From assembly GCA_025060595.1 (NCBI GenBank), contig JANXBX010000006.1:65657-129656 (forward strand): a stretch of 64,000 nt of DNA. The letters are read 5' to 3'. The position numbers were made by a program, and so were the translations under genes. This stretch comes from Synergistota bacterium. GTDB taxonomy: Bacteria > Synergistota > GBS-1. Under the pieces are notes generated by a model. It searched no databases, was not told where the DNA came from, and saw only the letters and a list, made by a program, of their open reading frames with translations. Below, one piece after another: positions 3,828-16,806 of this stretch (positions are counted from its first letter, which is position 1; every line of letters starts with the position of its first letter).

Positions 3828-5033
3828 ATGATAGCATGTCTAAAAAAACGGTCAAGGTTTTGCTATCATATTCCTATGATAAAGCTATTCCAAAAACTAG
3901 AAAGGGTAAGCTTAATAGACAGGTTGAATCGATTTACACTTTTAGTCTCAAACGATAAGGGAGATATTATGAAAGCCTATCTTCCTAATTCAGGTAGCCT
4001 AGAGGAGTTATTAATCCCCGGTAGAGTTATATTAGTTACTCAAAATCCCGGTGGAGGACTGCCTCTTAGGGTAGCAGGAACCATAGATGAAGATGGAAAC
4101 GCAATAATGATAGACTCCTTAAAGATTAATGAGATATTCCCGGCAATTATAAATAATATCCCCTCATTAAAAGGATATAGTATATCCCAAAGAGAGGTGA
4201 GATATAAAAACGCAAGATTCGATTTTCTACTAGAGAAAGAGGGAGAAAAGCTTATATTAGAAATTAAGGGATGTACCCTATTTACACAAGATGTGGCATC
4301 CTTTCCAGACGCTCCTACTAAAAGAGGAGTCAAACATTTAAAGCTGCTTTCAGACCTGCAATCAGACCTTAAAGGTGGTATCCTCTTTTTAATCCAAAAG
4401 CCGGTTAAATATTTCCTGCCTAACTTTCATACAGATTTAGAGTTCGCAAGGGAGATATTCAAGGCAAAGGATAAAATTCTTATAGAAGCTATAAGCTTAA
4501 AATGGGATGAAGAGTTAAACCTTATCGAAGATTCCATATCTAAGGTGGAAATCCCCTGGGAAGCAACTAAGCCCTTCTTAGAGGACAAAGGTGTATATCT
4601 GATACTCATGTTTAACGAGAAAGATAAACAGATAAGCTTCTCAAGAGGATTAAGGGAAAAATCTGCCCTTTTCCCCAGAGGCTTTTACATATATACCGGT
4701 TCAGCGTTAAAGGGACTCTCCTCAAGGATAAAGAGACATATTAAAAAAGAAGGAAAAAACTTCTGGCATATAGATTATATAAAAAGACACATGAAAACTC
4801 TAAAAGCTATAACCATAAAAAGCCCTAACAAGATAGAGTGCGAAATAGCTAATGAGCTTATGACAATAGCAGATAGCTACATCCTAAACTTCGGATCAAG
4901 CGACTGCAACTGCAAAAGCCACTTACTTTATTTCCAAAAAGATCCAAGAAAAATGGATAAATTTATTAAAACTATATTAAAATTTAGATTCGACATTATA
5001 AAAGACATTGTTGAAAGGACTTCGCAATGGTAA
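3828..5033 (+). CDS. sfsA: SfsA (sugar fermentation stimulation protein A) domain fused to a C-terminal DUF123 / GIY-YIG-like nuclease domain
   Basis: The N-terminal ~235 aa carry SfsA hallmarks (LIDRLNRF..., SFPDAPTKRGVKHLKLLSDL). The C-terminal ~130 aa carry GVYLIL...FYIYTGSALKGLSSRIKRH...FWHIDYI, a GIY-YIG-like DUF123 signature. The true start may be the internal Met at ~3876. Confidence 0.7.
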   Translation: MIACLKKRSRFCYHIPMIKLFQKLERVSLIDRLNRFTLLVSNDKGDIMKAYLPNSGSLEELLIPGRVILVTQNPGGGLPLRVAGTIDEDGNAIMIDSLKINEIFPAIINNIPSLKGYSISQREVRYKNARFDFLLEKEGEKLILEIKGCTLFTQDVASFPDAPTKRGVKHLKLLSDLQSDLKGGILFLIQKPVKYFLPNFHTDLEFAREIFKAKDKILIEAISLKWDEELNLIEDSISKVEIPWEATKPFLEDKGVYLILMFNEKDKQISFSRGLREKSALFPRGFYIYTGSALKGLSSRIKRHIKKEGKNFWHIDYIKRHMKTLKAITIKSPNKIECEIANELMTIADSYILNFGSSDCNCKSHLLYFQKDPRKMDKFIKTILKFRFDIIKDIVERTSQW

Positions 5034-5056: not shown

Positions 5057-5722
5057 ATGAATAGACACAGAGTGGGATTAATAAGGGTTCTAACTATAGA
5101 AAACGAGGAGCTTTTAAACGCTCATGGCAGAATGATAGAAAAGGCCTTCCCTGAACTTAAAGTTATAAGCAAATGCATAGAGGATCAACCAAATGGAATT
5201 TACGATGAAGAAACAGAAAGAATAGCAAAGCCAAAGATTTTACGGTTAATCAGAGAATTCGAGGAAAAGGAAAGCGTTGAAGCTATAATCATAAGCTGTG
5301 CTGCGGATCCGGCAGTTGAAGAGGCAAGGGAAACATCGAAGATACCAGTAATAGGCGCAGGGTCTTCCTCTGCTGCAATGGCATTGGCCCTTGGTAAAAA
5401 GGTGGGGGTGCTAAACTTAACGGAAAAAACACCGAAGGTTTTCAAAAGCATTTTAAAGGAAAACTTGGTTGCCGAAGATAGCCCCGAAGGAGTTAAAAAC
5501 ACCTTAGATCTCCTAACCGATTGGGGCAAGGAAAAGGCATTGGAAGCCGCCATAAGGTTAAAGGAAAGAGGATCTCAGGTTATAGCTTTCGCCTGCACTG
5601 GATATTCAACGATCGAGCTCGCCCCCTTACTGGAGAAAGAGATTAAAATCCCCATAGTAGATGCAGTCTTAGCCTCAGGAGCAGTTACACTTTATGCTTT
5701 AAAGATATTTAAAGGTAGGTGA
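5057..5722 (+). CDS. Asp/Glu/hydantoin racemase family protein
   Basis: A 221-aa protein with the layout typical of the Asp/Glu/hydantoin racemase (arylmalonate decarboxylase / maleate isomerase) fold, including AIIISCAADPAVEEA and VIAFACTGYST segments. Confidence 0.6.
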   Translation: MNRHRVGLIRVLTIENEELLNAHGRMIEKAFPELKVISKCIEDQPNGIYDEETERIAKPKILRLIREFEEKESVEAIIISCAADPAVEEARETSKIPVIGAGSSSAAMALALGKKVGVLNLTEKTPKVFKSILKENLVAEDSPEGVKNTLDLLTDWGKEKALEAAIRLKERGSQVIAFACTGYSTIELAPLLEKEIKIPIVDAVLASGAVTLYALKIFKGR

Positions 5723-5729
5723 GAAGAGC

Positions 5730-6812
5730 ATGATACTGAAGGTGAATGAAAAAATCGCTGAGGCTGCAGTTTTAGGAGGGGCCTTTCTAGGCGGCGGTGG
5801 AGGCGGAGATTTAAAGTTAGGGCTTTCTCACGCCATCTTAGCACTAGGCTTAGGTGAAATAGTAATAGCAGATATAGATAGTTTACCTCAAGATAGCTAT
5901 ATAGTAACTGCATCCTTAGTAGGTGCCCCAGCTGCAAAGGAAAGATACGTACTTCCATCACACATGGTCAAATCCTTCGAGTTGCTAAGGGAAACAATTA
6001 AACTTGAAATTAATGGAATAATATCCTCTGAAAACGGTGGATACTCAACTATAAATGGATGGATAGTTTCAGCACTTACCGGTATACCAATAGTAGATGC
6101 GCCTGCAGATGGAAGAGCTCATCCAACAGGAGTAATGGGGGCTATGGGATTACACAAACTTAGAGATTATATATCAATCCAAACTGCCGTAGGAGGAAAT
6201 AAGGATGAGGGAAGATATACAGAAATCCTCGTTAAGGGAAGCCTTGAAAGAGCCTCAAGGATGGTAAGAGAGGCTGCGGTTCAAGCTGGAGGCTTAGTAG
6301 CGGTAACAAGAAACCCTGTAAAAAGGGAGTACGTTAAGGAAAACGGAGCTATCGGAGGAATAACACAAGCAATAGAGATCGGAGGGCTTATGAAAAAATA
6401 CAAAGATGATCCATACACGCTATCAGAGAAGATCATAGCTTACTTCGGCGAAGGAAAAATAATAGACAAGGTAAGAATAGAAGAAGTATCTTTAAAGACC
6501 GAGGGAGGCTTCGATGTTGGGAAAATAATGGTTAAAGGGGAAAAAGACAGCTATGAAATAACCTTCTGGAATGAATTTATGACCTTGGAGAGCTTAAGCG
6601 GTGAAAGGCTCGGAACCTTCCCAGACCTTATATCCATGATAGAAATTGGGAGCTCTATCCCTCTAACTTCCTCTCAGGCGAAGGAAGGCATGGAAGCGCT
6701 TTTACTAGTGATACCAAAAGAGAAAATCCTTCTAGGCTCAGGCGTAAAGGACCCAGAGATTTTAAAAGGGATAGAAAAAGTTATAGGTAAAAAGATAGTA
6801 GGAGGCGATTAA
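5730..6812 (+). CDS. DUF917 family protein (hydantoinase / ASKHA-like)
   Basis: 360 aa. The N-terminal poly-Gly motif VLGGAFLGGGGGGD is characteristic of DUF917. It sits in an operon with racemase-fold proteins. Confidence 0.5.
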   Translation: MILKVNEKIAEAAVLGGAFLGGGGGGDLKLGLSHAILALGLGEIVIADIDSLPQDSYIVTASLVGAPAAKERYVLPSHMVKSFELLRETIKLEINGIISSENGGYSTINGWIVSALTGIPIVDAPADGRAHPTGVMGAMGLHKLRDYISIQTAVGGNKDEGRYTEILVKGSLERASRMVREAAVQAGGLVAVTRNPVKREYVKENGAIGGITQAIEIGGLMKKYKDDPYTLSEKIIAYFGEGKIIDKVRIEEVSLKTEGGFDVGKIMVKGEKDSYEITFWNEFMTLESLSGERLGTFPDLISMIEIGSSIPLTSSQAKEGMEALLLVIPKEKILLGSGVKDPEILKGIEKVIGKKIVGGD

Positions 6813-6814
6813 AA

Positions 6815-7753
6815 ATGCTAAAACAGGTCATTGAGGCATTTGAGCTTCTTGACAGCGCTTATATTAACGGGGAGAGGGTAAAAGAGGCCTTAAACCAGAG
6901 GGGTCTTAATAACGTGGAAGTTAAAAGGATCAGCGGAGAAAAGGGCTCTACAGATTTTATAAAGATCCTGATACCTGGTAAAAGAGGAAAATCCTCTGGT
7001 GGAAGCGCACATACTTTAGGAATAATAGGAAGGCTTGGAGGCATAGGAGCAAGACCAGAAAGAATTGGACTCGTATCTGACGCTGACGGAGCTATAACTG
7101 CCATAGCTGTAGCGCTAAAACTCGGAGACATGATTAAAAACGGTGACGTCCTTGAGGGAGATGTCATAATCGCAACTCACATATGTCCAAATGCTCCAAC
7201 CCAGCCTCATGAGCCTGTTCCCTTCATGGGTTCACCTGTTGATATGGCTACAATGAACAAGTTTGAGGTAGATCCCCAAATGGATGCTATATTATCTATA
7301 GATACCACTAGGGGAAACAGGATAATAAACGTTAGAGGCTTCGCCATAACTCCAACAGTAAAAGAGGGATGGATTTTAAGAGTAAGCGATGACCTTCTTG
7401 ACATAATGGGCTATGTAACAGGGAGAATGCCAGCGGTTGTTCCTATAACTATGCAAGATATAACTCCTTACGGCAACGGCATCTACCACCTAAATAGCAT
7501 CATGCAGCCTGCAACAGCAACAAATGCACCAGTTGTAGGAGTTGCCATCACCGCTGAGATCCCGGTTCCAGGTTGTGCTACCGGAGCAAGTCAAGCAATA
7601 GATATAGAGCTCGCTGGGAGATTTTGTATAGAGGTAGCAAAGGGATTTGGAAGAGGAAAGGTGAAGTTCTATAACGAAGAGGAGTTCAAAAGGTTAATAG
7701 AACTTTACGGTCCCATGAACCATCTGCAAGGGCTGGGGAGGCAATGCAAATGA
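6815..7753 (+). CDS. Hypothetical protein, possibly DUF1177 family
   Basis: 312 aa with no recognisable catalytic motif. It is co-operonic and tightly spaced with the DUF917 and AroM genes. Confidence 0.35.
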   Translation: MLKQVIEAFELLDSAYINGERVKEALNQRGLNNVEVKRISGEKGSTDFIKILIPGKRGKSSGGSAHTLGIIGRLGGIGARPERIGLVSDADGAITAIAVALKLGDMIKNGDVLEGDVIIATHICPNAPTQPHEPVPFMGSPVDMATMNKFEVDPQMDAILSIDTTRGNRIINVRGFAITPTVKEGWILRVSDDLLDIMGYVTGRMPAVVPITMQDITPYGNGIYHLNSIMQPATATNAPVVGVAITAEIPVPGCATGASQAIDIELAGRFCIEVAKGFGRGKVKFYNEEEFKRLIELYGPMNHLQGLGRQCK

Positions 7754-8406
7754 GGCTCGGCCTTATAACCATAGGTCAATCACCAAGGTCAGATGTAGTC
7801 CCAGAGATGCGACCATATATCAAAGATGTAGAGATATTCGAACTTGGCGCATTAGATGGTCTCTCCTTAGAGGAGATTAAAAAGCTTCATCCTAAAGAGG
7901 GAGAGCCAGTTTTGGTAAGTAGACTTAGGGATGGCACACAAGTTAAGCTAAACGGAAACATAATAGCCCAAAGATTAAAAGAGTGCGTGAAAAGGCTCGA
8001 AAATGAGGTAGATATAATAGGGCTATTGTGCACAGGAGAGTTTAAAGAGTTACGCTCAAATAAAATTCTAATTGAGCCATCTCTTATATTAACTAAGGTA
8101 GTTGAAGCTTTAAATGTTGAAAGACTCGGAGTGCTGATTCCCGAACCTGAACAAGAGGAGATGACCTTAAGAAAGTGGGATGGCAAGGCAAAAGAAATAT
8201 TGATAAGTAGCGTATCTCCTTATACCGGAAGGGAAGAGGATTTTTTAAGCGCTGGAGAGAAACTAAAGAACTGTGACATGGTGGTTTTAGACTGCATAGG
8301 CTACAACCTAAAGGTAAAAAGCCTTATAGGGAAAATAACAGAAAGACCGGTTCTCCTACCAAGAACCCTTATGGCAAGAGTTATAGGAGAGCTCTTAGAG
8401 AGGTGA
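7744..8406 (+). CDS. AroM family protein
   Basis: The N-terminal LGLITIGQSPRSDV is the AroM-family signature start. 220 aa. Confidence 0.55.
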   Translation: MQMRLGLITIGQSPRSDVVPEMRPYIKDVEIFELGALDGLSLEEIKKLHPKEGEPVLVSRLRDGTQVKLNGNIIAQRLKECVKRLENEVDIIGLLCTGEFKELRSNKILIEPSLILTKVVEALNVERLGVLIPEPEQEEMTLRKWDGKAKEILISSVSPYTGREEDFLSAGEKLKNCDMVVLDCIGYNLKVKSLIGKITERPVLLPRTLMARVIGELLER

Positions 8407-8413
8407 TGAAATA

Positions 8414-9382
8414 TTGAAAATAGAAATTAATAGGGATCTATATAGCGCCTGTGAGACAGCTTTAAGGGAATGCATGGGAGTAAAAGAAGATGAAATAGTG
8501 CTTATAATAGCTGACGAGGAAAAAAGAAATATAGGCTTACACCTATGGATAAAGGCAAAAGAGCTTAAAACGGAAGCAATATACGTAGAAATGTTACCGA
8601 GAAAGATGCACGGAGAAGAGCCACCCCTACCCATAGCTGAAGCTATGAAATCAGCAGATGTAGTTTTAGCACCTACCTCTAAATCCATAACGCATACCCT
8701 TGCTAAAAAGGAGGCTTGCGAACGTGGAACGAGAGTAGCAACCCTTCCTGGAATAACGGAAGACATATTTATAAGAACATTAAACGCGAACTATGAGGAA
8801 ATGCTTAAGATAACTAATAAAGTGGCAGACATCCTTGACGAAGGAGAAAACATTGAAATAATAACTTCCCTTGGAACACATTTAAGCTTTTCCATAAAGG
8901 GTAGAAAGGCTAAAAGAAGCACAGGGATATATAGAAAGGTTGGAGAGTGTGGCAACCTCCCTGGAGCGGAAGCTTTCATAGCTCCGGTAGAGGGGACGGC
9001 TCAAGGAGTAGCAATTATAGATGGATCGATGGCAGGAATAGGCTTGTTAAAGAAGCCTATTCGTCTAATAATTAATGAAGGAATGGTCAAAACTATAGAA
9101 GGAGGTGAAGAGGCGGAAAAGCTCAAAGATATTCTATCGAGGTATAGCGAAGAGGCGAAAAATATAGGAGAGTTTGGTATAGGAACTAATCCAAAAGCCA
9201 TGATAAGCGGAAACACTCTTGAAGATGAAAAGGTTTTGGGAACCATTCATATAGCGATAGGAAACAATATAGACTTTGGGGGAACGATCAAGGCACCAAT
9301 TCATCTTGATGGTGTAATAAAGGTTCCAACAGTTATCGTAGACGGAAGACCTCTCATAAGAGAGGGTAAGCTCCTAATTTAG
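8414..9382 (+). CDS. Peptidase M29-like (aminopeptidase T / AmpS family) protein
   Basis: TTG start. 322 aa. Conserved C-terminal GTIHIAIGNN...HLDGV block, as in thermophilic M29 aminopeptidases. Confidence 0.55.
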   Translation: MKIEINRDLYSACETALRECMGVKEDEIVLIIADEEKRNIGLHLWIKAKELKTEAIYVEMLPRKMHGEEPPLPIAEAMKSADVVLAPTSKSITHTLAKKEACERGTRVATLPGITEDIFIRTLNANYEEMLKITNKVADILDEGENIEIITSLGTHLSFSIKGRKAKRSTGIYRKVGECGNLPGAEAFIAPVEGTAQGVAIIDGSMAGIGLLKKPIRLIINEGMVKTIEGGEEAEKLKDILSRYSEEAKNIGEFGIGTNPKAMISGNTLEDEKVLGTIHIAIGNNIDFGGTIKAPIHLDGVIKVPTVIVDGRPLIREGKLLI

Positions 9383-9398
9383 AAAGGAGGGGAATCAA

Positions 9399-10982
9399 AT
9401 GGAAGCGAAAGGAAGACACCCATCAGCGCTTGAGCCTGCGGTCCTTATACTTAACATAGCGATGGCCGTATTCGGAGCCATAATAGGGCTTGAACTTATA
9501 ACTCGTTTAGGTATATCAACCAATACCTCAATTATCGGTGCCTTAATAGCTATTATCCTTGCAAGGGTTCCGGTTATGGCTTTACAGAAGTTCTTAGATA
9601 TTAATAGGCAAAACTTGGTTCAAACCACGATATCAGGAGCAACCTTCGGAGCAGCAAATGCCATATTCCTGCCAGCAGCGATACCTTGGCTTCTTAAAAG
9701 ACCTGACCTTGTTATGCCTATGTTAATAGGGGCCTTCTTAGGAGCAGTAGTAGACATGACCATACTTTATTGGCTTTTCGATACAAGAGCTTTCCCAGCA
9801 AAACATGCTTGGCCACCAGGAATCGCTACAGCTGAGACCCTTCTTGCAGCCGCCCAAAAGGGTAAAAGAGCTATGTATCTCATATATGGAATGCTTGGTG
9901 GGGGAACCCTAGCTTATTTTGGCATACCTGCTGACGTAGCTGGAGTAGCTTGGATAGGGAATATATGGGCTTTAGCGATGTTCGGCATAGGCTTAATAAT
10001 TAGAGGATACTCAGTTAAGCTATTTGGCATCGATATTAATAAGTACTACATACCTCATGGGATAATGATAGGTGCCGGTGTAGCAGCCTTAGTCCAGATG
10101 TTCATGGTCTTGCGCGAGAAAAAAGCTTATACTAGAGAAGAGCATAAAGAGTACAAGCCCTCGAGACCTGATAAAGACATAGCTCTGGGCTTAAGCAAAG
10201 GTTTCATACTATACATAGCTATAGGCCTGCTTATAGCTGTTACCAGCGGATTATATACGAATATGTCAGCAGGAATGTTTATATGGTGGATAATATTTGC
10301 GGCTATAGCAGCGCTTGTTTCTGAGCTTATGGTGGGGCTTTCAGCAATGCATGCGGGGTGGTTCCCAGCTTTCGCAACGGCATTAATATTCCTAACCATA
10401 GGAATGCTTATGGGATTTCCACCCATAGCTTTAGGCTTACTTGTAGGATACACGGCTTCAACTGGACCGGCTTTTGCAGACATGGGATACGACCTTAAAA
10501 CTGGTTGGATAATAAGAGGATATGGAAAAGACCCAGCCCTAGAAATGGAAGGAAGGAAACAACAATATATAGCTGAGTTAACAGGACTTGTAGTAGCAGT
10601 CATCATGGTAATGATTTTAGCCAAAACATACTTAGTTCAGGATCTTGTACCCCCTGTTGACAGAGTATACGTTAAGACCATAGAAGCTGGAGCTAACCCT
10701 CAAATAGCTAAATATCTAATCATATGGGCTATACCTGGAGCTATAATACAGGCAATTGGCGGACCGGATAGACAGATAGGAATACTACTCGCTACAGGTC
10801 TTCTAATATTAAACCCCTTAGCTGGTTTCACAGTACTTGCGGCCTTAGGAATCAGGCTTTTGGTCTTAAGCAAATATAAGCAGGAAGGACAAAACGTCCT
10901 TTATGTTCTTGGAGCAGGCTTTATAGCGGGAGCCACACTTGTTAGCTTCTTCAGATCAACACTAAGGCTTGGAAGGAAGTGA
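9399..10982 (+). CDS. Polytopic membrane permease, possibly OPT (oligopeptide transporter) superfamily
   Basis: 527 aa, highly hydrophobic, 14 or more predicted TM segments. It is flanked by two peptidase-like genes. Confidence 0.4.
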   Translation: MEAKGRHPSALEPAVLILNIAMAVFGAIIGLELITRLGISTNTSIIGALIAIILARVPVMALQKFLDINRQNLVQTTISGATFGAANAIFLPAAIPWLLKRPDLVMPMLIGAFLGAVVDMTILYWLFDTRAFPAKHAWPPGIATAETLLAAAQKGKRAMYLIYGMLGGGTLAYFGIPADVAGVAWIGNIWALAMFGIGLIIRGYSVKLFGIDINKYYIPHGIMIGAGVAALVQMFMVLREKKAYTREEHKEYKPSRPDKDIALGLSKGFILYIAIGLLIAVTSGLYTNMSAGMFIWWIIFAAIAALVSELMVGLSAMHAGWFPAFATALIFLTIGMLMGFPPIALGLLVGYTASTGPAFADMGYDLKTGWIIRGYGKDPALEMEGRKQQYIAELTGLVVAVIMVMILAKTYLVQDLVPPVDRVYVKTIEAGANPQIAKYLIIWAIPGAIIQAIGGPDRQIGILLATGLLILNPLAGFTVLAALGIRLLVLSKYKQEGQNVLYVLGAGFIAGATLVSFFRSTLRLGRK

Positions 10983-12040
10983 AAAGATATATGACCCTTT
11001 ACGAGTTTGAGCTTGGGCTTGCAGCAAAAAAGCTCGTTAGAGATATACTTGATGTTCAACCTGATGAAATAGTAGCGATAACAGCAGATACGCTATCCAG
11101 CGAAGCTGTGGCTAACGCCACCGCAAGAGCAGTTTTCGAAGCTGGAGCAAAACCTATGACCATATGGGTTGCCACACCCTTGGGGGTTGGAAAAGCCGCT
11201 GATCCGATGCTTCCTCAAAAAGCCTTAATAGGAGCCTTAAACAATGCAGATGTATGGATAGAGTTTAACTACCAGTGGCTCTTATACTCAACGGTATTTG
11301 ATAGGGTGATTGCGGAAAACAAAAACCTAAGATATATATGCCTTGTGGGAATGAACCCAGATATGATGGTAAGAGTCATAGGAAGGGTGGATATAAAGGT
11401 TTTAGCACAATTCCTAAAAACGATTGCAGAGATAACTATGAAAGGGAAACACGTGAGAGTAACAACACCCGCTGGAACAGATGTGGAATTTGATAATCAC
11501 CCGCAAAGGCCACCTATAGTTCACTCAGGATACATACCTAAAGGGACCTATGGAATGCTACCTGGACAGATAAGCTGGACACCCAAGCTCGAGACTATAA
11601 AAGGGTACATAGTTTTCGATGGCTCCATATATCCACCTATAGGGTTGCTAAAAGAACCTATTAAACTAACCATCGAGAAGGGCAGAATAGTAAAAATAGA
11701 AGGGGGAAGAGAGGCAAGGGAGCTTGAAAGCTGGATCAAAAGCTTTAACGATCCAAACATGTATCAGTTAGCCCACATTTCTTATGGGTTTAATCCGGGA
11801 GCAAAACTTACCGGTGATATAGTTGAAGATGAAAGAGTATGGGGAGCAACCGAATGGGGAATAGGAAACATAGGTCCCAGATTAGTTCCAGATATACCAG
11901 GAGGGGTACCTGCAGCCTCCCATACCGATGGAATATGCTTAAATTCATCAGTATGGATCGATGGAGTTCAAATAACAGATAAAGGGGTCGTAGTAAACCC
12001 ACCTGAGCTTGTTGAACTTGCAAAAAGGATAAAGAAATAG
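10979..12040 (+). CDS. Peptidase M29 family protein (aminopeptidase / 2,5-dihydroxypyridine dioxygenase-like)
   Basis: 353 aa. Conserved WGATEWGIGN...HTDG block, paralogous to the gene at 8414. Confidence 0.5.
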   Translation: MKRYMTLYEFELGLAAKKLVRDILDVQPDEIVAITADTLSSEAVANATARAVFEAGAKPMTIWVATPLGVGKAADPMLPQKALIGALNNADVWIEFNYQWLLYSTVFDRVIAENKNLRYICLVGMNPDMMVRVIGRVDIKVLAQFLKTIAEITMKGKHVRVTTPAGTDVEFDNHPQRPPIVHSGYIPKGTYGMLPGQISWTPKLETIKGYIVFDGSIYPPIGLLKEPIKLTIEKGRIVKIEGGREARELESWIKSFNDPNMYQLAHISYGFNPGAKLTGDIVEDERVWGATEWGIGNIGPRLVPDIPGGVPAASHTDGICLNSSVWIDGVQITDKGVVVNPPELVELAKRIKK

Positions 12041-12086: not shown

Positions 12087-12114
12087 AGGGCTCCAGTATT
12101 ATACTGGAGCCCTA
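12087..12114. terminator. GC hairpin, putative bidirectional intrinsic terminator
   Basis: The sequence gggctccagtattatactggagccc is a perfect inverted repeat between the peptide operon and the ATPase. Confidence 0.5.
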
Positions 12115-12150: not shown

Positions 12151-14226
12151 GTGAGAACATATAAAAAGCTATCCCTCATTGGACTTGATTGCCCTAACTG
12201 TGCAGTAAAAATCGAAAAGGATGTAAAGGGCATAAAGGGAGTTAAAGATGCGATAGTATCCTTAAGCTCTCAAAAACTAACCTTAACGATAGAGGAGGAA
12301 AGTAGCTGGCCAGACATCTTAAATCAGGTAAAGCTTGTGGTTAATAAGTACGATACAAACATAAAAGTCTTAGAAAAGGACCTTGAAGATAAACATAAGA
12401 TAACTAAAGAGATTATAAAACTAGCTTTAGGAACCTCTCCCTTTGTGATAGCTTTTCTCGCTAATGGCAGCTTAAAGCAGGCGCTATTTATCCTTTCCTA
12501 TATTGCAATTGGACACAGCGTGCTTTTAAAGGCATTTAAAAATATACTAAGCGGCCAAGTATTCGACGAAAACCTGTTAATGTCAATTGCCACCTCTGGA
12601 GCGCTTTTGATAGGTGAGGTGCCTGAAGCAATTTCCGTAATGCTCTTTTATAAGATAGGCGAGCTTTTGCAAAACATAGCAGTAGAAAACTCAAGAAGAT
12701 CTATAACCGCATTATTGGACCTGCGTCCGGAGTTTGCAAACTTACTAATTGGAAACGAAACGAAAAAAACTAAAGCAGAAGCGATAAAGATAGGAGACAC
12801 AATAATTGTGAGACCGGGGGAGAGAATCCCGCTTGATGGCATAGTCATAGAGGGAAGCTCAAGCGTTGACACATCTACTATTACAGGGGAATCTATGCCG
12901 AGAAGCGTAACAGTTGGAAACGAGGTTTTAGCGGGATTTATAAATCTAGATGGCCTGTTAAAGATAAAGGTAACCAAGGAGTTCAAGGAATCGACGATTA
13001 GTAAGATCTTAGAGCTAGTTGAAAATGCAAGTGCCAGAAAGGCAAGAACCGAAAACTTTATCACTAAGTTTGCAAGGTTTTACACACCTATTGTCATTCT
13101 CCTGGCTCTACTTATAGCTTTAATCCCGCCTATGGCGTTCGGACGACCCTTCTCCCTATGGATATATAGAGCTTTGGTTTTCTTAGTAGTCTCATGCCCA
13201 TGTGCACTGCTAATATCGATACCCCTTGGCTTCTTTGCAGGAATCGGATCAGCTTCAAGGAATGGCATTCTGATGAAAGGAAGTAACTACTTAGAAGCCT
13301 TAAACGACGTTAATACGATAATCTTCGATAAGACCGGAACCTTAACCATGGGAAGATTTAAAATAAAAAACATATGGTCAGCTAAAGGATACGAAAGAGA
13401 AGATATCCTTAATTATGCAGCCCATGCAGAGTTCTACTCTAATCATCCCATAGCCCAATCAATTTTAAACGAATACAGCAATATAGACGAAACTAAGATA
13501 AAGGAGTACAGAGAAATACCCGGCTTTGGGGTAGAAGCGAAAATAAACGATAAAAGAGTTCTAGTAGGAAATGCTAAACTGTTATCGGATAGAGGAATAG
13601 ATATTGATAAAGAAATCGAAACAGAAACGGGAGTTTACGTAGCCATCAACGATAAGCTTGCAGGATACATCACCTTTGAAGATGAGATAAAGAAAGACGC
13701 AAAGGAAACGATCGACCGCCTAAAGGAAATCGGAATTAAAACCGTACTTTTCACAGGGGATCATAAGAATGCAGCGAAATACGTTGCAGAAAGCCTAGGG
13801 ATAGACGAATTTTACCATGACCTTTTACCCCACCAAAAGGTGGAGAAACTGGAAGAATTAAAAACCAAGAAAAGCAGAGGAAATATAATTTTCGCAGGAG
13901 ATGGCATAAATGATGCAGCAGTCATCGCTAGAGCAGATATAGGCATCGCAATGGGAGCATTAGGACAAGATGCAGCCATCGAAGCTGCAGACGTGGTCAT
14001 CATGAACGATCAAATTAAAAGTATACTTACAGCTATACATATAGCAAGAAAAACCAAAAAGATAGTGTGGCAAAACATCTTCCTTGCCTTATCCATAAAG
14101 TTTCTCGTTTTAATCACGGCCTCGCTAGGAATGGTAAATATGTGGGAAGCGGTCTTTGCGGATGTAGGAGTAGCTCTTATGACAATCTTAAACTCACTGA
14201 GAATAACCAATGAGAATTTCGATTAA
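12151..14226 (+). CDS. Heavy-metal translocating P1B-type ATPase (Zn/Cd/Pb type)
   Basis: GTG start. N-terminal HMA domain with GLDCPNC. CPC motif (VVSCPCALL). DKTGTLT phosphorylation site. TM8 Asp (ADVGVALMTILNSLR) typical of P1B-2 ZntA/CadA. Confidence 0.85.
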   Translation: MRTYKKLSLIGLDCPNCAVKIEKDVKGIKGVKDAIVSLSSQKLTLTIEEESSWPDILNQVKLVVNKYDTNIKVLEKDLEDKHKITKEIIKLALGTSPFVIAFLANGSLKQALFILSYIAIGHSVLLKAFKNILSGQVFDENLLMSIATSGALLIGEVPEAISVMLFYKIGELLQNIAVENSRRSITALLDLRPEFANLLIGNETKKTKAEAIKIGDTIIVRPGERIPLDGIVIEGSSSVDTSTITGESMPRSVTVGNEVLAGFINLDGLLKIKVTKEFKESTISKILELVENASARKARTENFITKFARFYTPIVILLALLIALIPPMAFGRPFSLWIYRALVFLVVSCPCALLISIPLGFFAGIGSASRNGILMKGSNYLEALNDVNTIIFDKTGTLTMGRFKIKNIWSAKGYEREDILNYAAHAEFYSNHPIAQSILNEYSNIDETKIKEYREIPGFGVEAKINDKRVLVGNAKLLSDRGIDIDKEIETETGVYVAINDKLAGYITFEDEIKKDAKETIDRLKEIGIKTVLFTGDHKNAAKYVAESLGIDEFYHDLLPHQKVEKLEELKTKKSRGNIIFAGDGINDAAVIARADIGIAMGALGQDAAIEAADVVIMNDQIKSILTAIHIARKTKKIVWQNIFLALSIKFLVLITASLGMVNMWEAVFADVGVALMTILNSLRITNENFD

Positions 14227-14255: not shown

Positions 14256-15458
14256 TCAAGGTAAGCTTTCTTCCTTCCTCTTAGCCTCTATGAAAGCCCT
14301 CCTTAATGCCTCTTTAATATCCTTGTCCTTAAGAACCAGAATAGCCATTCTTCCTAAGGCTTTAGCGCCTAAAACTATGGCCTCATGAGCTCTCTCAGAT
14401 TTAGTAAGCTCTGAGAATTCCCTTGTGTGCAGAGGTACCTTCTTTCCAGTTATATCTAAGACAGGTTGAATGGCTGGACATCTATGACTGACATTACCTA
14501 TGTCTGATGAGCCCATAGGACCTGGTGGCTCGGACAGCTCAACCTTAAGATCACGTAATATATCCTCGAAAAGCCTCTCAGCCACCTCATTTGGAAGCAT
14601 GTTATCAAAGCTAAACTCATAGTTTCGCCAAGTCACCTCTGTAGCTGTAGCCAAAGCAGCACCCTTAGCGCAATTAAAGACCTGCTCAACGAGTCTTTTA
14701 AGATAACCCCTCCATGGTGCCCTAAAGTAGAACCTCGCTACAGCCCTTTCCGGGACTATATTAGGAACACTACCACCATCAACTATAACACCATGCATTC
14801 TAACTTCCGGCTTCACATGTTGCCTTAACATATCTATAGCATGAAAGAAAAGCTGAAGACCATTTAAAGCGTTCCTACCCTCCCAAGGAGCTGAAGCAGC
14901 ATGGGAGGATTTCCCCTTAAACTCAAACTCTATGGCATCAAGAGCCAACGAACGATATTTGGCAAAACTTATACCTCCACCCGCATGGATCATCATAGCT
15001 AAGTCCACATCATCAAAAACTCCTCTTTCAGCCATCAAAACTTTGGCCCCGCTCGTTTCCTCAGAAGGAGTACCTATGACTAAAAGCTCCCCTCTTAGCT
15101 CACCCCTTTTAAAGAGTTTTATCAAAGCTATCCCAGCTAATGTGGACATAGCACCATGAACGTTATGACCACAAGCATGACCAATCTCTGGTAAAGCATC
15201 ATACTCCACTAAAAGAACCACCTTAGCACCATCACCATTTTTCACCTTACCGATAAAGGAATAGGGTATACCTATAAATGGCGATTCCATATCAAATCCA
15301 TGTCTTCTAAGAAGATCCATGTGGATCTTACTTGATCTTTCCTCTTCTCCGGAAAGCTCAGGGTTATCCGCAAGGTAATCACTTAAGGCTATGGCCTCCT
15401 GAGCGCTTTCCTCTACTAATCTATCAATCTCGTTAAAAAGCCCTCTGTATTTTTCCAT
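14256..15458 (-). CDS. M20 family amidohydrolase (AbgB-like)
   Basis: 400 aa. Metal-ligand motif ...EIGHACGHNVHGAMS... and an M20 dimerisation region. Confidence 0.8.
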   Translation of the reverse strand: MEKYRGLFNEIDRLVEESAQEAIALSDYLADNPELSGEEERSSKIHMDLLRRHGFDMESPFIGIPYSFIGKVKNGDGAKVVLLVEYDALPEIGHACGHNVHGAMSTLAGIALIKLFKRGELRGELLVIGTPSEETSGAKVLMAERGVFDDVDLAMMIHAGGGISFAKYRSLALDAIEFEFKGKSSHAASAPWEGRNALNGLQLFFHAIDMLRQHVKPEVRMHGVIVDGGSVPNIVPERAVARFYFRAPWRGYLKRLVEQVFNCAKGAALATATEVTWRNYEFSFDNMLPNEVAERLFEDILRDLKVELSEPPGPMGSSDIGNVSHRCPAIQPVLDITGKKVPLHTREFSELTKSERAHEAIVLGAKALGRMAILVLKDKDIKEALRRAFIEAKRKEESLP

Positions 15459-15461
15459 GAT

Positions 15462-16805
15462 TTACCTCCTTATGATCTTCCCTTCTGGCGGTTCTATAAT
15501 TTTCCCATCTTCCACAGAAACCTTTCCATTAACCACAACATACCTTATACCCTTTGGGGAAGCTAATGGCTCCTTAAAGGTAGCCATATCTTTAAACTCC
15601 TTAGGATCAAATATGGTTATATCCGCATAAAAGCCCTCCTTTATCTTTCCTCTATATTCCATGAAGGCATTATCTGCGGGAATCGTTGTAGCATGCCTTA
15701 AAGCCTCTTCCCAACTAAATCCCGCTTCCCTAAGCCACAACAACGCCCTAGGAAAGGCACCAGATGCCCGGGGATGTCCCCAACCACCTCTTATAACAGC
15801 ATCAGAAGCTATAGCACACATGGGGTGAAGGATACAAAGCCTCATCTCATCTTCATTCATAACGTGAGCAACAACCAACGTTTCTGGCGCATTTTGCCTT
15901 AAAAAGCTAAAAAGCTCGGGATCAAGCCTACGCCCCCTGAAACTTCCACTTGCCACCTCTATATATTCTAGCCCCTTACCCCACCTCTCCTCAAACCCAG
16001 GATCGAAAACAGCCGAACCTATGTAGGTACAAAAGGCAGAGTAGGGATAGCTATCGAATCTCAAATCCACACCCTCCGATATCGCTTCCTCAATCAATCT
16101 TAAGGCCTCTTTAGAATAGCCAAAAGCCGTCATACTCCCTAAATGAGATATAATAACTCTCACCTTAACATCTTTAGCTAAAGAAATGGCTTCCTTCACT
16201 GCCTCAATACACCTTGGACCATCATACCTTATATGTATAGAAATGAATCTCCTCTCGAATTCCCTTAAAACCCAAGCTAGACCATATATCTCATCTTTAT
16301 CAACATATGGAGTATATTCAAGACCGAGAGAAAAACCGAAAGAACCATGTCTTAACTCTTCTCTCAATATCTCTCTCATGGCCTCGATCTCAGAGGGACT
16401 GGCACACCTATAAGGATCATTTATACCTATAGACTCCCTTAAGGCTCTATGACCCGTTAAAAAGCCAAGGTTGATATACTTATCTTTCACGACCTTTTCT
16501 ATTTCTCTAACCAAAGCACCAGAGCCGCAGTTTCCAGAAATCCCAGTAGTTACACCTTGAAGAAGGAGCAACTTCTGTACCGTATAAGGATCAGAAGGAT
16601 CCTCATCTACATGCATATGAGTATCTATAAAGCCAGGTGAAACAACAAGACCAGTAGCATCAATAACCCTCTTAGCATTCACCTCGGCTTCTAGATCTGC
16701 AACCTTCTCTATATATACATCTTTTATTAATATAAGAGCAGATTTAAAGGTCTGGGACTCACCATCCCAGACCTTATCTCCCATTATGGCTAAATCATAA
16801 ATCAT
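15462..16805 (-). CDS. N-acyl-D-amino-acid deacylase (D-aminoacylase), amidohydrolase superfamily
   Basis: The N-terminal MIYDLAIMGDKVWDG...GLVVSPGFIDTHMHVDE is characteristic of D-aminoacylases. Confidence 0.75.
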   Translation of the reverse strand: MIYDLAIMGDKVWDGESQTFKSALILIKDVYIEKVADLEAEVNAKRVIDATGLVVSPGFIDTHMHVDEDPSDPYTVQKLLLLQGVTTGISGNCGSGALVREIEKVVKDKYINLGFLTGHRALRESIGINDPYRCASPSEIEAMREILREELRHGSFGFSLGLEYTPYVDKDEIYGLAWVLREFERRFISIHIRYDGPRCIEAVKEAISLAKDVKVRVIISHLGSMTAFGYSKEALRLIEEAISEGVDLRFDSYPYSAFCTYIGSAVFDPGFEERWGKGLEYIEVASGSFRGRRLDPELFSFLRQNAPETLVVAHVMNEDEMRLCILHPMCAIASDAVIRGGWGHPRASGAFPRALLWLREAGFSWEEALRHATTIPADNAFMEYRGKIKEGFYADITIFDPKEFKDMATFKEPLASPKGIRYVVVNGKVSVEDGKIIEPPEGKIIRR

Positions 16806-16806
16806 G

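What the first reader, a model, noticed from the sequence alone, without database searches (positions are those of the whole stretch)
5057..12040. Tight operon of two racemase-fold proteins, DUF917, a DUF1177-like protein, two M29-type metallohydrolases and a permease: candidate uncharacterised catabolic module
Seven co-directional genes have gaps of 10 nt or less or short overlaps. They are an Asp/Glu/hydantoin racemase-family protein, DUF917 (ASKHA/hydantoinase-like with a GGGGGG motif), an unrecognised 312-aa protein, AroM (racemase-like fold), an M29-like aminopeptidase, a 527-aa permease, and a second M29/NicX-like protein.

The flanks carry AbgT, M20 amidohydrolases, a D-aminoacylase and a YfcC transporter. 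The combination points to uptake and stepwise hydrolysis plus epimerisation of a D-amino-acid-containing or cyclic amide substrate, for example hydantoins, diketopiperazines or peptidoglycan-derived peptides. As far as I know no pathway has been assigned to this particular gene combination.
Basis: inference. Interest (0 to 1): 0.55.

Follow-up and report, generated by a model that had tools for sequence, protein, structure and literature searches.

The report
Conserved uncharacterised peptide-amide breakdown operon
Seven tightly packed genes (a peptide importer, two racemase-type enzymes, three peptidase-fold metal enzymes and a DUF917 enzyme) form an operon of unknown function that recurs across many bacterial and archaeal phyla, is near-identical in gene order to one in Pyrococcus horikoshii, and most likely salvages unusual small peptides that ordinary peptidases cannot cut.

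Summary
Window 5057-12040 (+) carries seven co-directional genes, each with a Shine-Dalgarno site. Gaps are 7, 2, -10 (probably -4), 7, 16 and -4 nt, and a strong hairpin follows the last gene.

The genes are a two-Cys hydantoin-racemase-like protein (orthologue of PDB 2EQ5), DUF917/S-Me-THD, a true DUF1177, AroM (also two conserved Cys), an M29 aminopeptidase-like protein, an OPT permease and a NicX-like M29 relative.

The set is not a chance neighbourhood. In 80 DUF1177-anchored genome loci, AroM, DUF917, racemase, M29 and OPT recur on the same strand. Where OPT is missing, an Opp/Dpp ABC importer or an NCS1 permease often takes its place.

Pyrococcus horikoshii has the same seven genes in the same order (60-86% aa identity, 68% nt identity over 7 kb). 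Other Synergistota carry a differently ordered, much more distant version, which points to inter-domain transfer of the operon.

An AlphaFold model of DUF1177 matches Zn-exopeptidase folds. One Thermococci locus adds a cyclodipeptide oxidase.

No pathway is assigned. One 2024 paper noted part of this association. I favour catabolism of cyclic or mixed-chirality small peptides; the substrate remains inferred.

The parts
5057..5722 (+). Rac: two-thiol Asp/Glu/hydantoin-racemase-superfamily enzyme, orthologue of the P. horikoshii 'hypothetical hydantoin racemase' (PDB 2EQ5)
   Evidence: PF01177 at 89 bits. 2eq5 matches at E 2e-92 over residues 1-216. C81 (SCAADP) and C180 (ACTG) align with the Cys of 2EQ5 and of the Klebsiella racemase 3QVJ. 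Both Cys are conserved in at least 93% of 27 operon homologues.
5730..6812 (+). DUF917 / S-Me-THD family protein, a paralogue of the thiohydantoin desulfurases
   Evidence: PF06032 at 77 bits and PF20906 at 79 bits. NCBIfam thiohydantoin desulfurase scores 290 bits, below the 440 equivalog cut-off. PDB 2o3i matches at 4.5e-8. Conserved residues include G21-G26, E101, N109, D123, GRAHP(H131), R180, R194, D262, N281-E282 and D299.
6815..7753 (+). DUF1177: very strongly conserved protein with a Zn-exopeptidase-like fold, and the anchor of the module
   Evidence: PF06675 at 466 bits. It is 86% identical to the P. horikoshii protein and 62-74% identical to the other 80 genome loci, which span many bacterial and archaeal phyla. 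The AF2 model has pLDDT 82.8 and pTM 0.88. Foldseek PDB hits are M17 and M28 aminopeptidases, the DapE catalytic domain and glutaminyl cyclase, at E about 2e-8 and TM about 0.5. Invariant residues are D47, D89, D91, H122, C124, H132, D143, E151, D163, D215, H225 and C254.
7744..8406 (+). AroM family protein (racemase-like). The likely true start is 7750, overlapping the DUF1177 stop as ATGA.
   Evidence: PF07302 at 248 bits. NCBIfam PRK10481 scores 238 bits, above the 198 cut-off. C96 (CTG) and C184 (CxG) are conserved in at least 93% of 52 homologues. AroM follows DUF1177 in 28 loci, 15 of them with a -4 overlap. One single-contig DUF1177-AroM fusion exists, P0126.
8414..9382 (+). M29a: M29 (AmpS/PepS)-type metallo-aminopeptidase-like protein
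   Evidence: PF02073 at 46 bits, above the 27 cut-off. It aligns to PepS (4icq) across the PTEE, DE and NH motifs and to NicX at H318/D320. Conserved residues are E186, E253, E270/E272, H279, H297 and D299.
9399..10982 (+). OPT-family permease, the presumed importer
   Evidence: PF03169 at 78 bits. It has 12 hydrophobic segments. In other loci its place is taken by Opp/Dpp-type ABC importers (SBP_bac_5, OppC_N, oligo_HPY) or by NCS1 permeases.
10979..12040 (+). M29b: NicX-like member of the M29 fold
   Evidence: NicX (7cn3) matches at E 2e-14. H266, H315 and D317 align with NicX H265, H318 and D320. The P. horikoshii orthologue carries a precomputed PF26233 NicX hit. The M29 Pfam score of 17 bits is below the cut-off. 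The M29 first-Glu position is Q197.
12088..12112 (+). Perfect 11-bp stem / 3-nt loop hairpin 48 nt after the last stop codon. It is a probable transcript end of the operon; an operator for the downstream ZntA gene is the alternative.
   Evidence: Sequence. The RNA fold gives -25.7 kcal/mol, z = -6.2 against shuffles. The T-run is weak, and the terminator scan did not call it.

Best explanation
This is a cytoplasmic salvage and catabolic operon for small peptide-derived amides that standard L-specific peptidases cannot hydrolyse. My preferred substrates are cyclic dipeptides (2,5-diketopiperazines) and the mixed-chirality dipeptides they yield.

Proposed flow:
1. The OPT permease imports the compound.
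2. The two-thiol racemase Rac interconverts C-alpha stereoisomers of the ring compound. This feeds DUF917, the gene it almost always precedes. DUF917 carries out water-dependent chemistry on the heterocycle, that is, ring opening or ring conversion.
3. AroM, a second two-Cys racemase-fold enzyme, is translationally coupled to DUF1177, a Zn-exopeptidase-fold enzyme. As a pair they epimerise and hydrolyse the linear product.
4. M29a (a dinuclear M29 aminopeptidase type) and M29b (a NicX-type His-His-Asp metal site, used here for hydrolysis and not for oxygenation) finish the conversion to free amino acids.

Shown here: the operon structure, the family memberships, conservation of catalytic-type residues, recurrent co-occurrence, interchangeable importers, and the archaeal-type origin of this copy.

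Inferred: the direction (catabolic), the pairing of the enzymes into two sub-modules, every individual reaction, and the substrate.
For: Operon and conservation:
- The genes are tightly packed, each with a Shine-Dalgarno site, and a hairpin follows the last gene.
- Among 80 DUF1177-anchored loci, the same-strand neighbours are AroM in 49-51, DUF917 in 35-37, M29-type in 28, Rac in 24-26 and OPT in 23-24. Among the 39 loci with at least 5 kb on both sides, 10 carry AroM, DUF917, Rac, M29 and OPT together.
- Adjacency counts are DUF917>DUF1177 33, DUF1177>AroM 28 (15 with an ATGA overlap), AroM>M29 18 and Rac>DUF917 17.
- P. horikoshii has the same seven-gene order.

Import, not export:
- Where OPT is absent, the loci carry binding-protein-dependent Opp/Dpp ABC systems (SBP_bac_5, OppC_N, oligo_HPY), or an NCS1 permease directly next to DUF917 or Rac.
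- The regulators are PucR-type (13 loci) or AsnC/Lrp-type.

Catalytic competence:
- Rac C81/C180 align with the Cys of 2EQ5 and 3QVJ.
- AroM has C96/C184 conserved.
- The M29a and M29b metal-ligand positions are conserved.
- DUF1177 has a Zn-exopeptidase-like fold.

Peptide and amide theme of the accessory neighbours: PepV, M20D, a Xaa-Pro-dipeptidase-like amidohydrolase, gamma-glutamyltransferase, S66 LD-carboxypeptidase, CN_hydrolase and a LarA-like racemase.

Link to cyclic dipeptides:
- Locus L002 (Thermococci) has the operon followed by another racemase and a CDOA/CDOB cyclodipeptide-oxidase pair.
- Andreas & Giessen 2024 found PF01177, DUF917, AroM, OPT/ABC transporters and peptidases enriched around non-CDPS CDOs (PMC11055893).
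- Ordinary peptidases do not cleave diketopiperazines, and the paper names no responsible gene (PMC3852281).

DUF917 chemistry: the only named members act on a 5-substituted thiohydantoin ring (NCBIfam names).

Host context: an anaerobic organic-acid and peptide fermenter, with aldehyde:ferredoxin oxidoreductase, a C11 peptidase and dCache chemoreceptors.
Against: - No enzyme of the operon has a demonstrated activity, and no substrate was tested.
- The CDO link rests on 1 of 82 loci here plus one paper's enrichment statement.
- Accessory genes point in several directions. S66 LD-carboxypeptidase suggests linear D-containing peptides. CN_hydrolase and NCS1 suggest hydantoin or N-carbamoyl compounds. 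GGT suggests gamma-glutamyl peptides.
- DUF1177's metal ligands could not be mapped. Its TM-score to peptidases is only about 0.5, its identity to them is 9-14%, and its invariant Cys residues are atypical for that clan.
- DUF1177 also occurs without any of the other genes in 8 of 39 complete loci, and in Bathyarchaeia it sits beside an MBL-fold protein, Usp and methionine aminopeptidase.
- The DUF1177-AroM fusion is a singleton from one contig.
Confidence: 0.45

Rival explanations
1. A hydantoin-utilisation-like pathway built from non-homologous parts. A 5-substituted hydantoin, or a related N-carbamoyl or cyclic ureide, is imported and racemised by Rac. DUF917 opens the ring to an N-carbamoyl amino acid. 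A peptidase-fold enzyme (DUF1177 or an M29 type) then removes the carbamoyl group, playing the role of the M20 L-carbamoylase. AroM racemises the N-carbamoyl intermediate.
For: - Rac's nearest characterised relatives are hydantoin/allantoin racemases.
- The only named DUF917 activities are on thiohydantoin rings.
- An NCS1 permease (the cytosine/purine/uracil/thiamine/allantoin permease family, PF02133) sits directly next to DUF917 or Rac in L053, L075 and L079.
- A CN_hydrolase, the family that includes D-carbamoylases, lies between DUF917 and DUF1177 in L080 and is also present in L046.
- PucR-type regulators, the purine/allantoin catabolism regulator family, occur in 13 loci.
- The authors of PMC11055893 read these genes as hydantoin/allantoin-related.
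Against: - Peptide importers dominate: OPT in about 24 loci and Opp/Dpp ABC in about 15, against NCS1 in 3.
- Dipeptidase neighbours (PepV, Xaa-Pro-dipeptidase-like) and three peptidase-fold genes per operon are more than a carbamoylase step needs.
- No amidohydrolase-superfamily or HyuA/B hydantoinase and no M20 carbamoylase lies in the operon.
- It is unclear where anaerobic peptide fermenters such as Pyrococcus would find natural 5-substituted hydantoins.
Confidence: 0.2
2. Catabolism of linear D-amino-acid-containing oligopeptides, for example peptidoglycan stem peptides or racemised or damaged peptides. OPT or Dpp imports them. Rac and AroM invert terminal D-residues or the released D-amino acids. 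DUF1177, M29a and M29b are the exopeptidases. DUF917 has an accessory role.
For: - Each operon has two racemase-fold enzymes with intact Cys pairs and three exopeptidase-fold proteins.
- The importers are of peptide type.
- An S66 LD-carboxypeptidase lies directly upstream of DUF1177-AroM in L008 and L012.
- PepV and M20D are neighbours.
- By analogy, the B. subtilis dpp-ykf genes combine a peptide ABC importer, a D-aminopeptidase, an LD-carboxypeptidase and a dipeptide epimerase. This is from my own knowledge and was not tested here.
Against: - It gives no role to DUF917, which is next to DUF1177 in 33 loci. It also does not explain the NCS1 or CDO variants.
- From my own knowledge, known members of the Asp/Glu/hydantoin racemase superfamily act on free amino acids or small rings, not on peptides.
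- None of the known peptidoglycan-peptide recycling families is part of the core.
Confidence: 0.2
3. A biosynthetic or tailoring cluster for a peptide-derived secondary metabolite, with OPT as the exporter. This is one of the two readings offered in PMC11055893.
For: Association with cyclodipeptide oxidase, an enzyme known from biosynthetic clusters. Epimerases are common tailoring enzymes.
Against: - No synthetase, ligase, CDPS or NRPS appears among the recurrent neighbours.
- The alternative transporters depend on a binding protein and are therefore importers.
- The accessory genes are hydrolases.
- The regulators are catabolic types (PucR, AsnC/Lrp).
- The carriers are mainly peptide-fermenting anaerobes.
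Confidence: 0.05
4. Members of known, unrelated pathways that happen to be adjacent: AroM in aromatic amino-acid (shikimate) metabolism, NicX-like proteins in nicotinate degradation, and DUF917 in ergothioneine degradation.
For: Family names only. E. coli aroM lies next to aroL (reference cited in PMC11055893). NicX is the best PDB match of M29b. Thiohydantoin desulfurase is the best NCBIfam match of DUF917.
Against: - The seven genes travel together across phyla and across domains.
- DUF917 scores well below both equivalog cut-offs.
- No shikimate, nicotinate or ergothioneine gene appears among the neighbour families I annotated.
- A dioxygenase reaction is implausible in strict anaerobes such as Pyrococcus.
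Confidence: 0.03

Closest known systems
Gene clusters around non-CDPS cyclodipeptide oxidases (Andreas & Giessen, Nat Commun 2024, PMC11055893)
   Same: The same enriched families: PF01177 racemase, DUF917, AroM, OPT or Opp/Dpp transporters, and peptidases. Carriers include anaerobes and Thermococcus. Locus L002 here joins the two: the operon is followed by CDOA (PF00881) and CDOB (PF19585).
   Different: The window operon has no CDO, and only 1 of 82 loci examined here does. DUF1177 and the M29/NicX-like pair are not mentioned in that paper or its supplements. No function was assigned there either.
Hydantoin-utilisation (hyu) operons: NCS1 permease, hydantoin racemase, hydantoinase and M20 L-carbamoylase (from my own knowledge of Arthrobacter/Microbacterium hyu genes)
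   Same: The logic is the same: an importer, a two-Cys PF01177 racemase, a ring-acting enzyme and a peptidase-clan hydrolase. The racemase supplies the stereoisomer that the hydrolases accept. NCS1 permeases replace OPT in three variants.
   Different: There is no amidohydrolase-superfamily or HyuA/B hydantoinase and no M20 carbamoylase in the operon. DUF917, DUF1177, AroM and two M29-fold proteins stand in their place, and the usual importer is a peptide transporter.
Thiohydantoin / S-methyl-thiohydantoin desulfurases of ergothioneine catabolism (NCBIfam NF058529, NF058532)
   Same: Same protein family (DUF917/S-Me-THD), matched over nearly the full length of the protein (residues 8-356 of 360).
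   Different: The scores are 290 and 255 bits against cut-offs of 440 and 450, so this is a paralogue and not an equivalog. No ergothionase or thiourocanate hydratase is in the operon or among the neighbour families annotated.
NicX, 2,5-dihydroxypyridine 5,6-dioxygenase (PDB 7cn3), and M29 aminopeptidases (PepS, 4icq)
   Same: M29 fold. M29b H266/H315/D317 align with NicX H265/H318/D320. M29a keeps the M29 Glu, Glu, His and His-x-Asp positions.
   Different: The hosts are strict anaerobes (Pyrococcus, a Synergistetes MAG), so O2-dependent ring cleavage is implausible. There are no nic genes. M29b is below the Pfam M29 cut-off.
P. horikoshii 'hypothetical hydantoin racemase', PDB 2EQ5
   Same: It is the orthologue of the first gene (E 2e-92 over the full length) and keeps both Cys. 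The P. horikoshii contigs examined (L081/L082) carry the same seven-gene operon; I infer, and did not check, that 2EQ5 is the product of its first gene.
   Different: It is a structural-genomics entry. The library held no paper on its function.
E. coli AroM (PRK10481)
   Same: Same family, above the NCBIfam cut-off.
   Different: From my own knowledge, E. coli aroM is co-transcribed with aroL, has no DUF1177 partner and has no known function. Here AroM is translationally coupled to DUF1177.

Membership tests
Asp/Glu/hydantoin racemase superfamily (PF01177) - gene 1 | Pfam model above the gathering score | tested here: met
   89.3 bits against a cut-off of 31.
Asp/Glu/hydantoin racemase superfamily (PF01177) - gene 1 | Two catalytic Cys, one in each pseudo-symmetric half | tested here: met
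   C81 and C180 align with the Cys of 2EQ5 and 3QVJ. Both are conserved in at least 93% of 27 homologues.
Hydantoin racemase (as an enzyme activity) - gene 1 | Racemisation of 5-substituted hydantoins | not testable with these tools
   The similarity to 3QVJ is only E 4e-11. The 2EQ5 name is a prediction.
DUF917 / S-Me-THD - gene 2 | Both Pfam domains above the gathering score | tested here: met
   77.1 and 79.4 bits against a cut-off of 27.
Thiohydantoin desulfurase equivalog (NF058529 / NF058532) - gene 2 | Score above the curated equivalog cut-off | tested here: not met
   289.8 bits against 440, and 255.2 bits against 450.
DUF1177 (PF06675) - gene 3 | Pfam model above the gathering score, over its full length | tested here: met
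   466 bits, covering model positions 2-271 of 272.
Zn-dependent exopeptidase (MH-clan-like) fold - gene 3 | Structural similarity of the catalytic domain | tested here: met
   Foldseek probability 1.00, E about 2e-8 and TM about 0.5 to M17, M28, DapE and glutaminyl cyclase.
Zn-dependent exopeptidase (MH-clan-like) fold - gene 3 | The canonical His/Asp/Glu co-catalytic metal ligands at equivalent positions | tested here: inconclusive
AroM (PF07302 / PRK10481) - gene 4 | Models above their cut-offs | tested here: met
   248.5 bits against 23.8, and 238.5 bits against 198.
Two-thiol racemase mechanism - gene 4 | A conserved Cys pair in CTG / CxG motifs | tested here: met
   C96 and C184 are conserved in at least 93% of 52 homologues. 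Activity itself was not testable.
Peptidase M29 - gene 5 | Pfam above the gathering score, and metal-ligand positions kept | tested here: met
   46.3 bits against 27. E186, E272 and H279 align with the PepS motifs, H297 and D299 align with NicX H318 and D320, and all are conserved. The numbering of M29 ligands in reference enzymes is from memory.
Peptidase M29 - gene 7 | Pfam above the gathering score | tested here: not met
   17.2 bits against 27.
NicX-like (PF26233) - gene 7 | His-His-Asp metal triad of NicX | tested here: met
   H266, H315 and D317 align with 7cn3 H265, H318 and D320. That these are the Fe ligands is from my own knowledge of the NicX literature. The PF26233 hit is on record for the P. 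horikoshii orthologue.
NicX dioxygenase (as an enzyme activity) - gene 7 | O2-dependent cleavage of 2,5-dihydroxypyridine within a nic cluster | tested here: not met
   No nic genes lie in the operon or among the neighbour families annotated. Anaerobic carriers make the activity implausible, which is an inference.
OPT transporter (PF03169) - gene 6 | Pfam above the gathering score; polytopic membrane protein | tested here: met
   77.9 bits against 25.8. 12 hydrophobic segments.
Cyclodipeptide-oxidase gene cluster | Presence of CDOA (PF00881) together with CDOB (PF19585) | tested here: not met
   Neither is in the window operon. The only nitroreductase in the window (33886-34545, minus strand) has no CDOB partner. 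The pair is present in L002.
hyu (hydantoin utilisation) operon | A hydantoinase (amidohydrolase superfamily or HyuA/B) and an N-carbamoylase | tested here: not met
   None of the seven genes matches these families.

The most novel reading that the evidence does not exclude
The operon encodes a catabolic route for 2,5-diketopiperazines (cyclic dipeptides), for which I found no gene described. DUF917 would be the ring-opening cyclic dipeptidase, fed by a DKP racemase. DUF1177-AroM would be a previously unknown dipeptide epimerase/dipeptidase complex. This would give the first functions to DUF1177 and AroM. It would also explain why peptide-fermenting (hyper)thermophiles, which meet heat-generated DKPs, exchanged the operon across domains.
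Probability: 0.2. Interest if true: 0.8.

Novelty: new variant of a known kind. Interest (0 to 1): 0.55.

Why it matters
Three of the seven families have no characterised function in this context: DUF1177, AroM, and the NicX-like M29 proteins of anaerobes. A fourth, DUF917, has only one known chemistry.

DUF1177 is unusually conserved. It is 62-87% identical across the genome loci sampled, which span many phyla and both domains. More than 8000 clusters at 90% identity collapse to 633 representatives at 50% identity, most of them fragments. That level of conservation implies a tightly constrained and widely used activity.

The operon is a compact set of seven genes and can be tested directly. 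Orthologues are present on contigs assigned to P. horikoshii, Thermococcus litoralis, Brevibacillus fluminis and an Alkalihalobacillus strain, which are candidate organisms for experiments. A crystal structure of one component already exists (2EQ5).

Solving the operon would assign functions to several widespread DUFs. It could also identify the genes behind microbial degradation of cyclic or D-containing small peptides. That process matters for peptide fermentation, for turnover of quorum-signal and natural-product compounds, and for biocatalysis through dynamic kinetic resolution.

The near-identical operon in a Synergistetes bacterium and in Thermococcales is also a clean example of inter-domain transfer of an operon.

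Tried and rejected
- Flanking genes as part of the module: rejected. AbgT, MCP, HD-GYP and the DcuC-Amidohydro_3-M20D trio are syntenic only in the close relatives L001 and L018, and ZntA is unique to the window.
- Shikimate role for AroM, nicotinate role for the NicX-like proteins, ergothioneine role for DUF917: rejected. The equivalog cut-offs are not met, and no such genes appear among the neighbour families annotated.
- CDO in the window: none in or near the operon. A lone nitroreductase at 33886-34545 (minus strand) is 27% identical to the L002 CDOA and has no CDOB partner.
- The 280-aa 'X282' protein common in other versions of the operon: absent from the window.
- Promoter and terminator scans: the counts equal the shuffled expectation, so they are uninformative. 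The hairpin at 12088-12112 was found by eye and then folded.
- Rfam and tRNA scans of the window: nothing found.
- Literature searches for DUF1177, PF06675, thiohydantoin desulfurase, 2EQ5 and DKP hydrolase genes: no functional paper found. The only relevant papers were PMC11055893 and PMC3852281.
- Fusion evidence: one DUF1177-AroM fusion and two PucR-DUF1177 fusions exist, but each is a singleton from one contig. I treat them as suggestive only.

Full report
**1. Observation**

The region 5057-12040 holds seven + strand ORFs exactly as reported. Each has a GGAGG-like ribosome-binding site.
- The gaps between successive genes are 7, 2, -10, 7, 16 and -4 nt, and the gene upstream ends 23 nt before the first gene.
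- For AroM, the ribosome-binding site spacing favours the second ATG, at 7750. That start overlaps the DUF1177 stop codon as ATGA.
- A perfect 11-bp hairpin lies at 12088-12112, 48 nt after the last stop codon. It folds at -25.7 kcal/mol, z = -6.2, and plausibly ends the transcript.
- The promoter and terminator consensus scans gave counts no different from shuffled sequence.
- The upstream co-directional gene is an SfsA-DUF123 fusion, and the downstream gene is a ZntA-type P-type ATPase.

**2. What the genes are**

Pfam and NCBIfam and PDB sequence searches give the following.

- *Gene 1, Rac.* A PF01177 racemase and the orthologue of the P. horikoshii 'hypothetical hydantoin racemase' 2EQ5 (E 2e-92). 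Its C81 and C180 align with the Cys pair of 2EQ5 and of the Klebsiella racemase 3QVJ.
- *Gene 2, DUF917/S-Me-THD.* It scores 290 bits on the NCBIfam thiohydantoin desulfurase model, against a cut-off of 440. It is therefore a paralogue of the only named activity in the family.
- *Gene 3, DUF1177.* A full-length member of the family at 466 bits.
- *Gene 4, AroM.* It scores above both curated cut-offs.
- *Gene 5, M29a.* An M29-type protein whose conserved E186, E272, H279, H297 and D299 align with PepS and NicX metal-site motifs.
- *Gene 6, OPT.* An OPT permease with 12 hydrophobic segments.
- *Gene 7, M29b.* A NicX-like protein. H266, H315 and D317 align with NicX H265, H318 and D320. It falls below the Pfam M29 cut-off and has Gln at the position of the first M29 Glu.

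Alignments of operon homologues show two Cys in AroM (C96 in CTG, C184 in CxG) conserved in at least 93% of 52 sequences. The operon therefore encodes two apparently competent two-thiol racemase-fold enzymes.

**3. DUF1177**

The family is strikingly conserved.
- It is 86% identical between this bacterial copy and P. horikoshii, and 62-74% identical to copies from Chloroflexota, Bacillota, Spirochaetota, Bathyarchaeia and others.
- In every comparison it is the best-conserved protein of the operon.
- More than 8000 clusters at 90% identity were found.
- Only 633 representatives at 50% identity match the family profile, and most of these are fragments.

An AlphaFold2 model (pLDDT 82.8, pTM 0.88) matches Zn-dependent exopeptidases in the PDB: M17 leucyl aminopeptidase, M28 aminopeptidases, the DapE catalytic domain and glutaminyl cyclase. 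These matches have E about 2e-8, TM about 0.5 and 9-14% identity.

**4. Is the association real?**

I anchored on DUF1177 and fetched 80 genome loci.
- Same-strand neighbours within 7 kb were AroM (49-51 loci), DUF917 (35-37), M29-type (28), Rac (24-26) and OPT (23-24).
- Many contigs are short. Among the 39 loci with at least 5 kb on both sides, 10 have AroM, DUF917, Rac, M29 and OPT together, and 8 have DUF1177 alone.
- Adjacency is stereotyped: DUF917>DUF1177 in 33 loci, DUF1177>AroM in 28 (15 with a 4-nt overlap), AroM>M29 in 18 and Rac>DUF917 in 17.
- The commonest bacterial layout is PucR - OPT - Rac - DUF917 - DUF1177 - (X282) - AroM - M29.
- Where OPT is absent there is usually an Opp/Dpp-type ABC importer (SBP_bac_5, OppC_N, oligo_HPY). 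In three loci an NCS1 permease lies directly next to DUF917 or Rac.

Accessory neighbours are nearly all amide hydrolases or stereo-inverting enzymes:
- PepV, an M20D amidohydrolase, a Xaa-Pro-dipeptidase-like amidohydrolase, gamma-glutamyltransferase and a ThrC-like PLP enzyme.
- S66 LD-carboxypeptidase, CN_hydrolase, a further M20 peptidase and a LarA-like racemase.

A DUF1177-AroM fusion exists but was seen only once.

The window's own flanks are conserved only in its two closest relatives.

**5. Origin of this copy**

P. horikoshii contigs carry the same seven genes in the same order, flanked by AsnC/Lrp-type regulators.
- Amino-acid identities are 65% (Rac), 62% (DUF917), 86% (DUF1177), 60% (AroM), 71% (M29a), 71% (OPT) and 81% (M29b).
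- The DNA aligns collinearly at 68% identity over about 7 kb.
- Other Synergistota loci have the different bacterial layout and only 34-50% identity for the proteins other than DUF1177.
- In neighbour-joining trees of OPT, DUF917, M29b and Rac, the window and its two close bacterial relatives are sister to Thermococci. In the OPT and M29b trees a Thermoplasmata copy branches outside that group; in the DUF917 tree it falls among the Thermococci. All other Synergistota copies lie far away (no support values were computed).
- This indicates inter-domain transfer of the whole operon, probably from archaea into this bacterial lineage. GC content (42.4% in the operon, 41.0% in the window) is uninformative.

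**6. Literature**

Full-text searches found no functional study of DUF1177, AroM or this DUF917 subgroup.

The one relevant paper is Andreas & Giessen 2024 (PMC11055893). It reports that cyclodipeptide-oxidase genes outside CDPS clusters, including those in Thermococcus, Clostridium and Blautia, sit among PF01177 racemases, DUF917, AroM, OPT/ABC transporters and peptidases. It assigns no function. DUF1177 and M29 are not mentioned in its text or supplements.

Locus L002 (a Thermococci MAG) links the two observations. There the operon runs Rac-DUF917-DUF1177-AroM-M29a-OPT and is followed by another racemase, then CDOA (PF00881) and CDOB (PF19585). It was the only such case among 82 loci.

Perzborn et al. 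2013 (PMC3852281) show that ordinary peptidases do not cleave diketopiperazines. Some bacteria do, enantioselectively, and these include strains that hydrolyse hydantoins. The abstract names no responsible gene.

**7. Interpretation**

The well-supported core is this: an importer-linked catabolic module that combines C-alpha stereo-inversion with hydrolysis of peptide-type amide bonds. It is organised as two recurrent pairs, Rac-DUF917 and DUF1177-AroM, plus M29-type finishing enzymes.

The interchangeable importers (OPT, Opp/Dpp, NCS1) suggest a small, peptide-like and possibly cyclic substrate. Three points make diketopiperazines my preferred candidate:
- the known ring chemistry of DUF917 (from NCBIfam names);
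- the similarity of Rac to hydantoin and allantoin racemases;
- the CDO link.

5-substituted hydantoins or N-carbamoyl compounds, and linear D-containing peptides, are serious rivals. The accessory genes give each of them some support (CN_hydrolase and NCS1 for the first, S66 LD-carboxypeptidase for the second). Every reaction assignment is inference.

**8. Verdict**

Its evidence from the flanking genes does not hold, and part of the gene association was already in print.
- The module is a real, widespread and uncharacterised operon. It follows the logic of hydantoin-utilisation-type pathways (racemase plus ring-acting enzyme plus peptidase-fold hydrolase) but is built from different families. 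I therefore class it as a new variant of a known kind, of moderate interest, with a concrete and testable higher-interest reading.

Noticed in passing
window 5057-12040 vs L081 8271-15239 (P. horikoshii); also L002, L003, L004: The whole operon is shared with Thermococcales in identical gene order (60-86% aa identity, 68% nt identity over 7 kb). Other Synergistota carry a differently ordered and far more distant version. NJ trees place the window copy as sister to Thermococci. This looks like inter-domain transfer of the operon.
   Followed up: partly
L034:10948-11796 and about 20 other loci (e.g. L011, L020, L039, L056, L062, L069, L070): A conserved protein of about 280 aa with no Pfam, NCBIfam or PDB sequence match ('X282'). 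In about 21 bacterial versions of the operon it sits inside the operon, most often between DUF1177 and AroM. It is absent from the window and from the archaeal-type versions.
   Followed up: partly
L002:14397-16059: In a Thermococci MAG the operon is followed by a further PF01177 racemase and a cyclodipeptide-oxidase pair (CDOA nitroreductase, 178 aa; CDOB DUF6092, 100 aa). Just upstream lies a second module: ABC transporter - Rac - DUF917 - Rac - NicX-like.
   Followed up: partly
window 3828-5033 (+): An SfsA nuclease (OB and RE domains) fused to a C-terminal DUF123 domain. It ends 23 nt before the operon and is conserved in that position in the two closest relatives (L001, L018), but not elsewhere.
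   Followed up: no
window 12088-12112, and 12151-14226 (+): A perfect 11-bp palindrome lies between the operon and a ZntA/CadA-type P-type ATPase. The ATPase gene is absent at this position in L001 and L018, so it looks like a local insertion. The palindrome could be a terminator or a metal-regulator operator.
   Followed up: partly
window 14256-18186 (-): A convergent three-gene unit: a DcuC/YfcC-type carrier, an Amidohydro_3 (D-aminoacylase-like) protein and an M20D amidohydrolase. It is present next to the operon in L018 but missing in L001, which suggests a separate small amide-catabolic module.
   Followed up: partly
P0126 (532 aa); P0146 and P0153 (733 aa each): One DUF1177-AroM fusion and two PucR-DUF1177 fusions occur in metagenome assemblies. 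Each was seen on a single contig, so assembly or frameshift artefacts cannot be excluded.
   Followed up: partly
Bathyarchaeia loci L005, L016, L030, L035, L037, L045, L049, L060: DUF1177 occurs in a different conserved context: an MBL-fold protein - DUF1177 - Usp - type II methionine aminopeptidase, then two unknown minus-strand genes and an FtsX-type ABC permease. AroM, DUF917 and Rac are absent.
   Followed up: no
window 20438-42246: The context genes fit an anaerobic fermenter of organic acids and peptides: dCache chemoreceptors, malic enzyme, class I fumarase, an Ldh_2 dehydrogenase, TctA/TctC, aldehyde:ferredoxin oxidoreductase, a C11 clostripain-like peptidase with Ig-like domains, and a lone nitroreductase (33886-34545, minus strand). 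The 64-kb window has no tRNA gene and no Rfam match.
   Followed up: no
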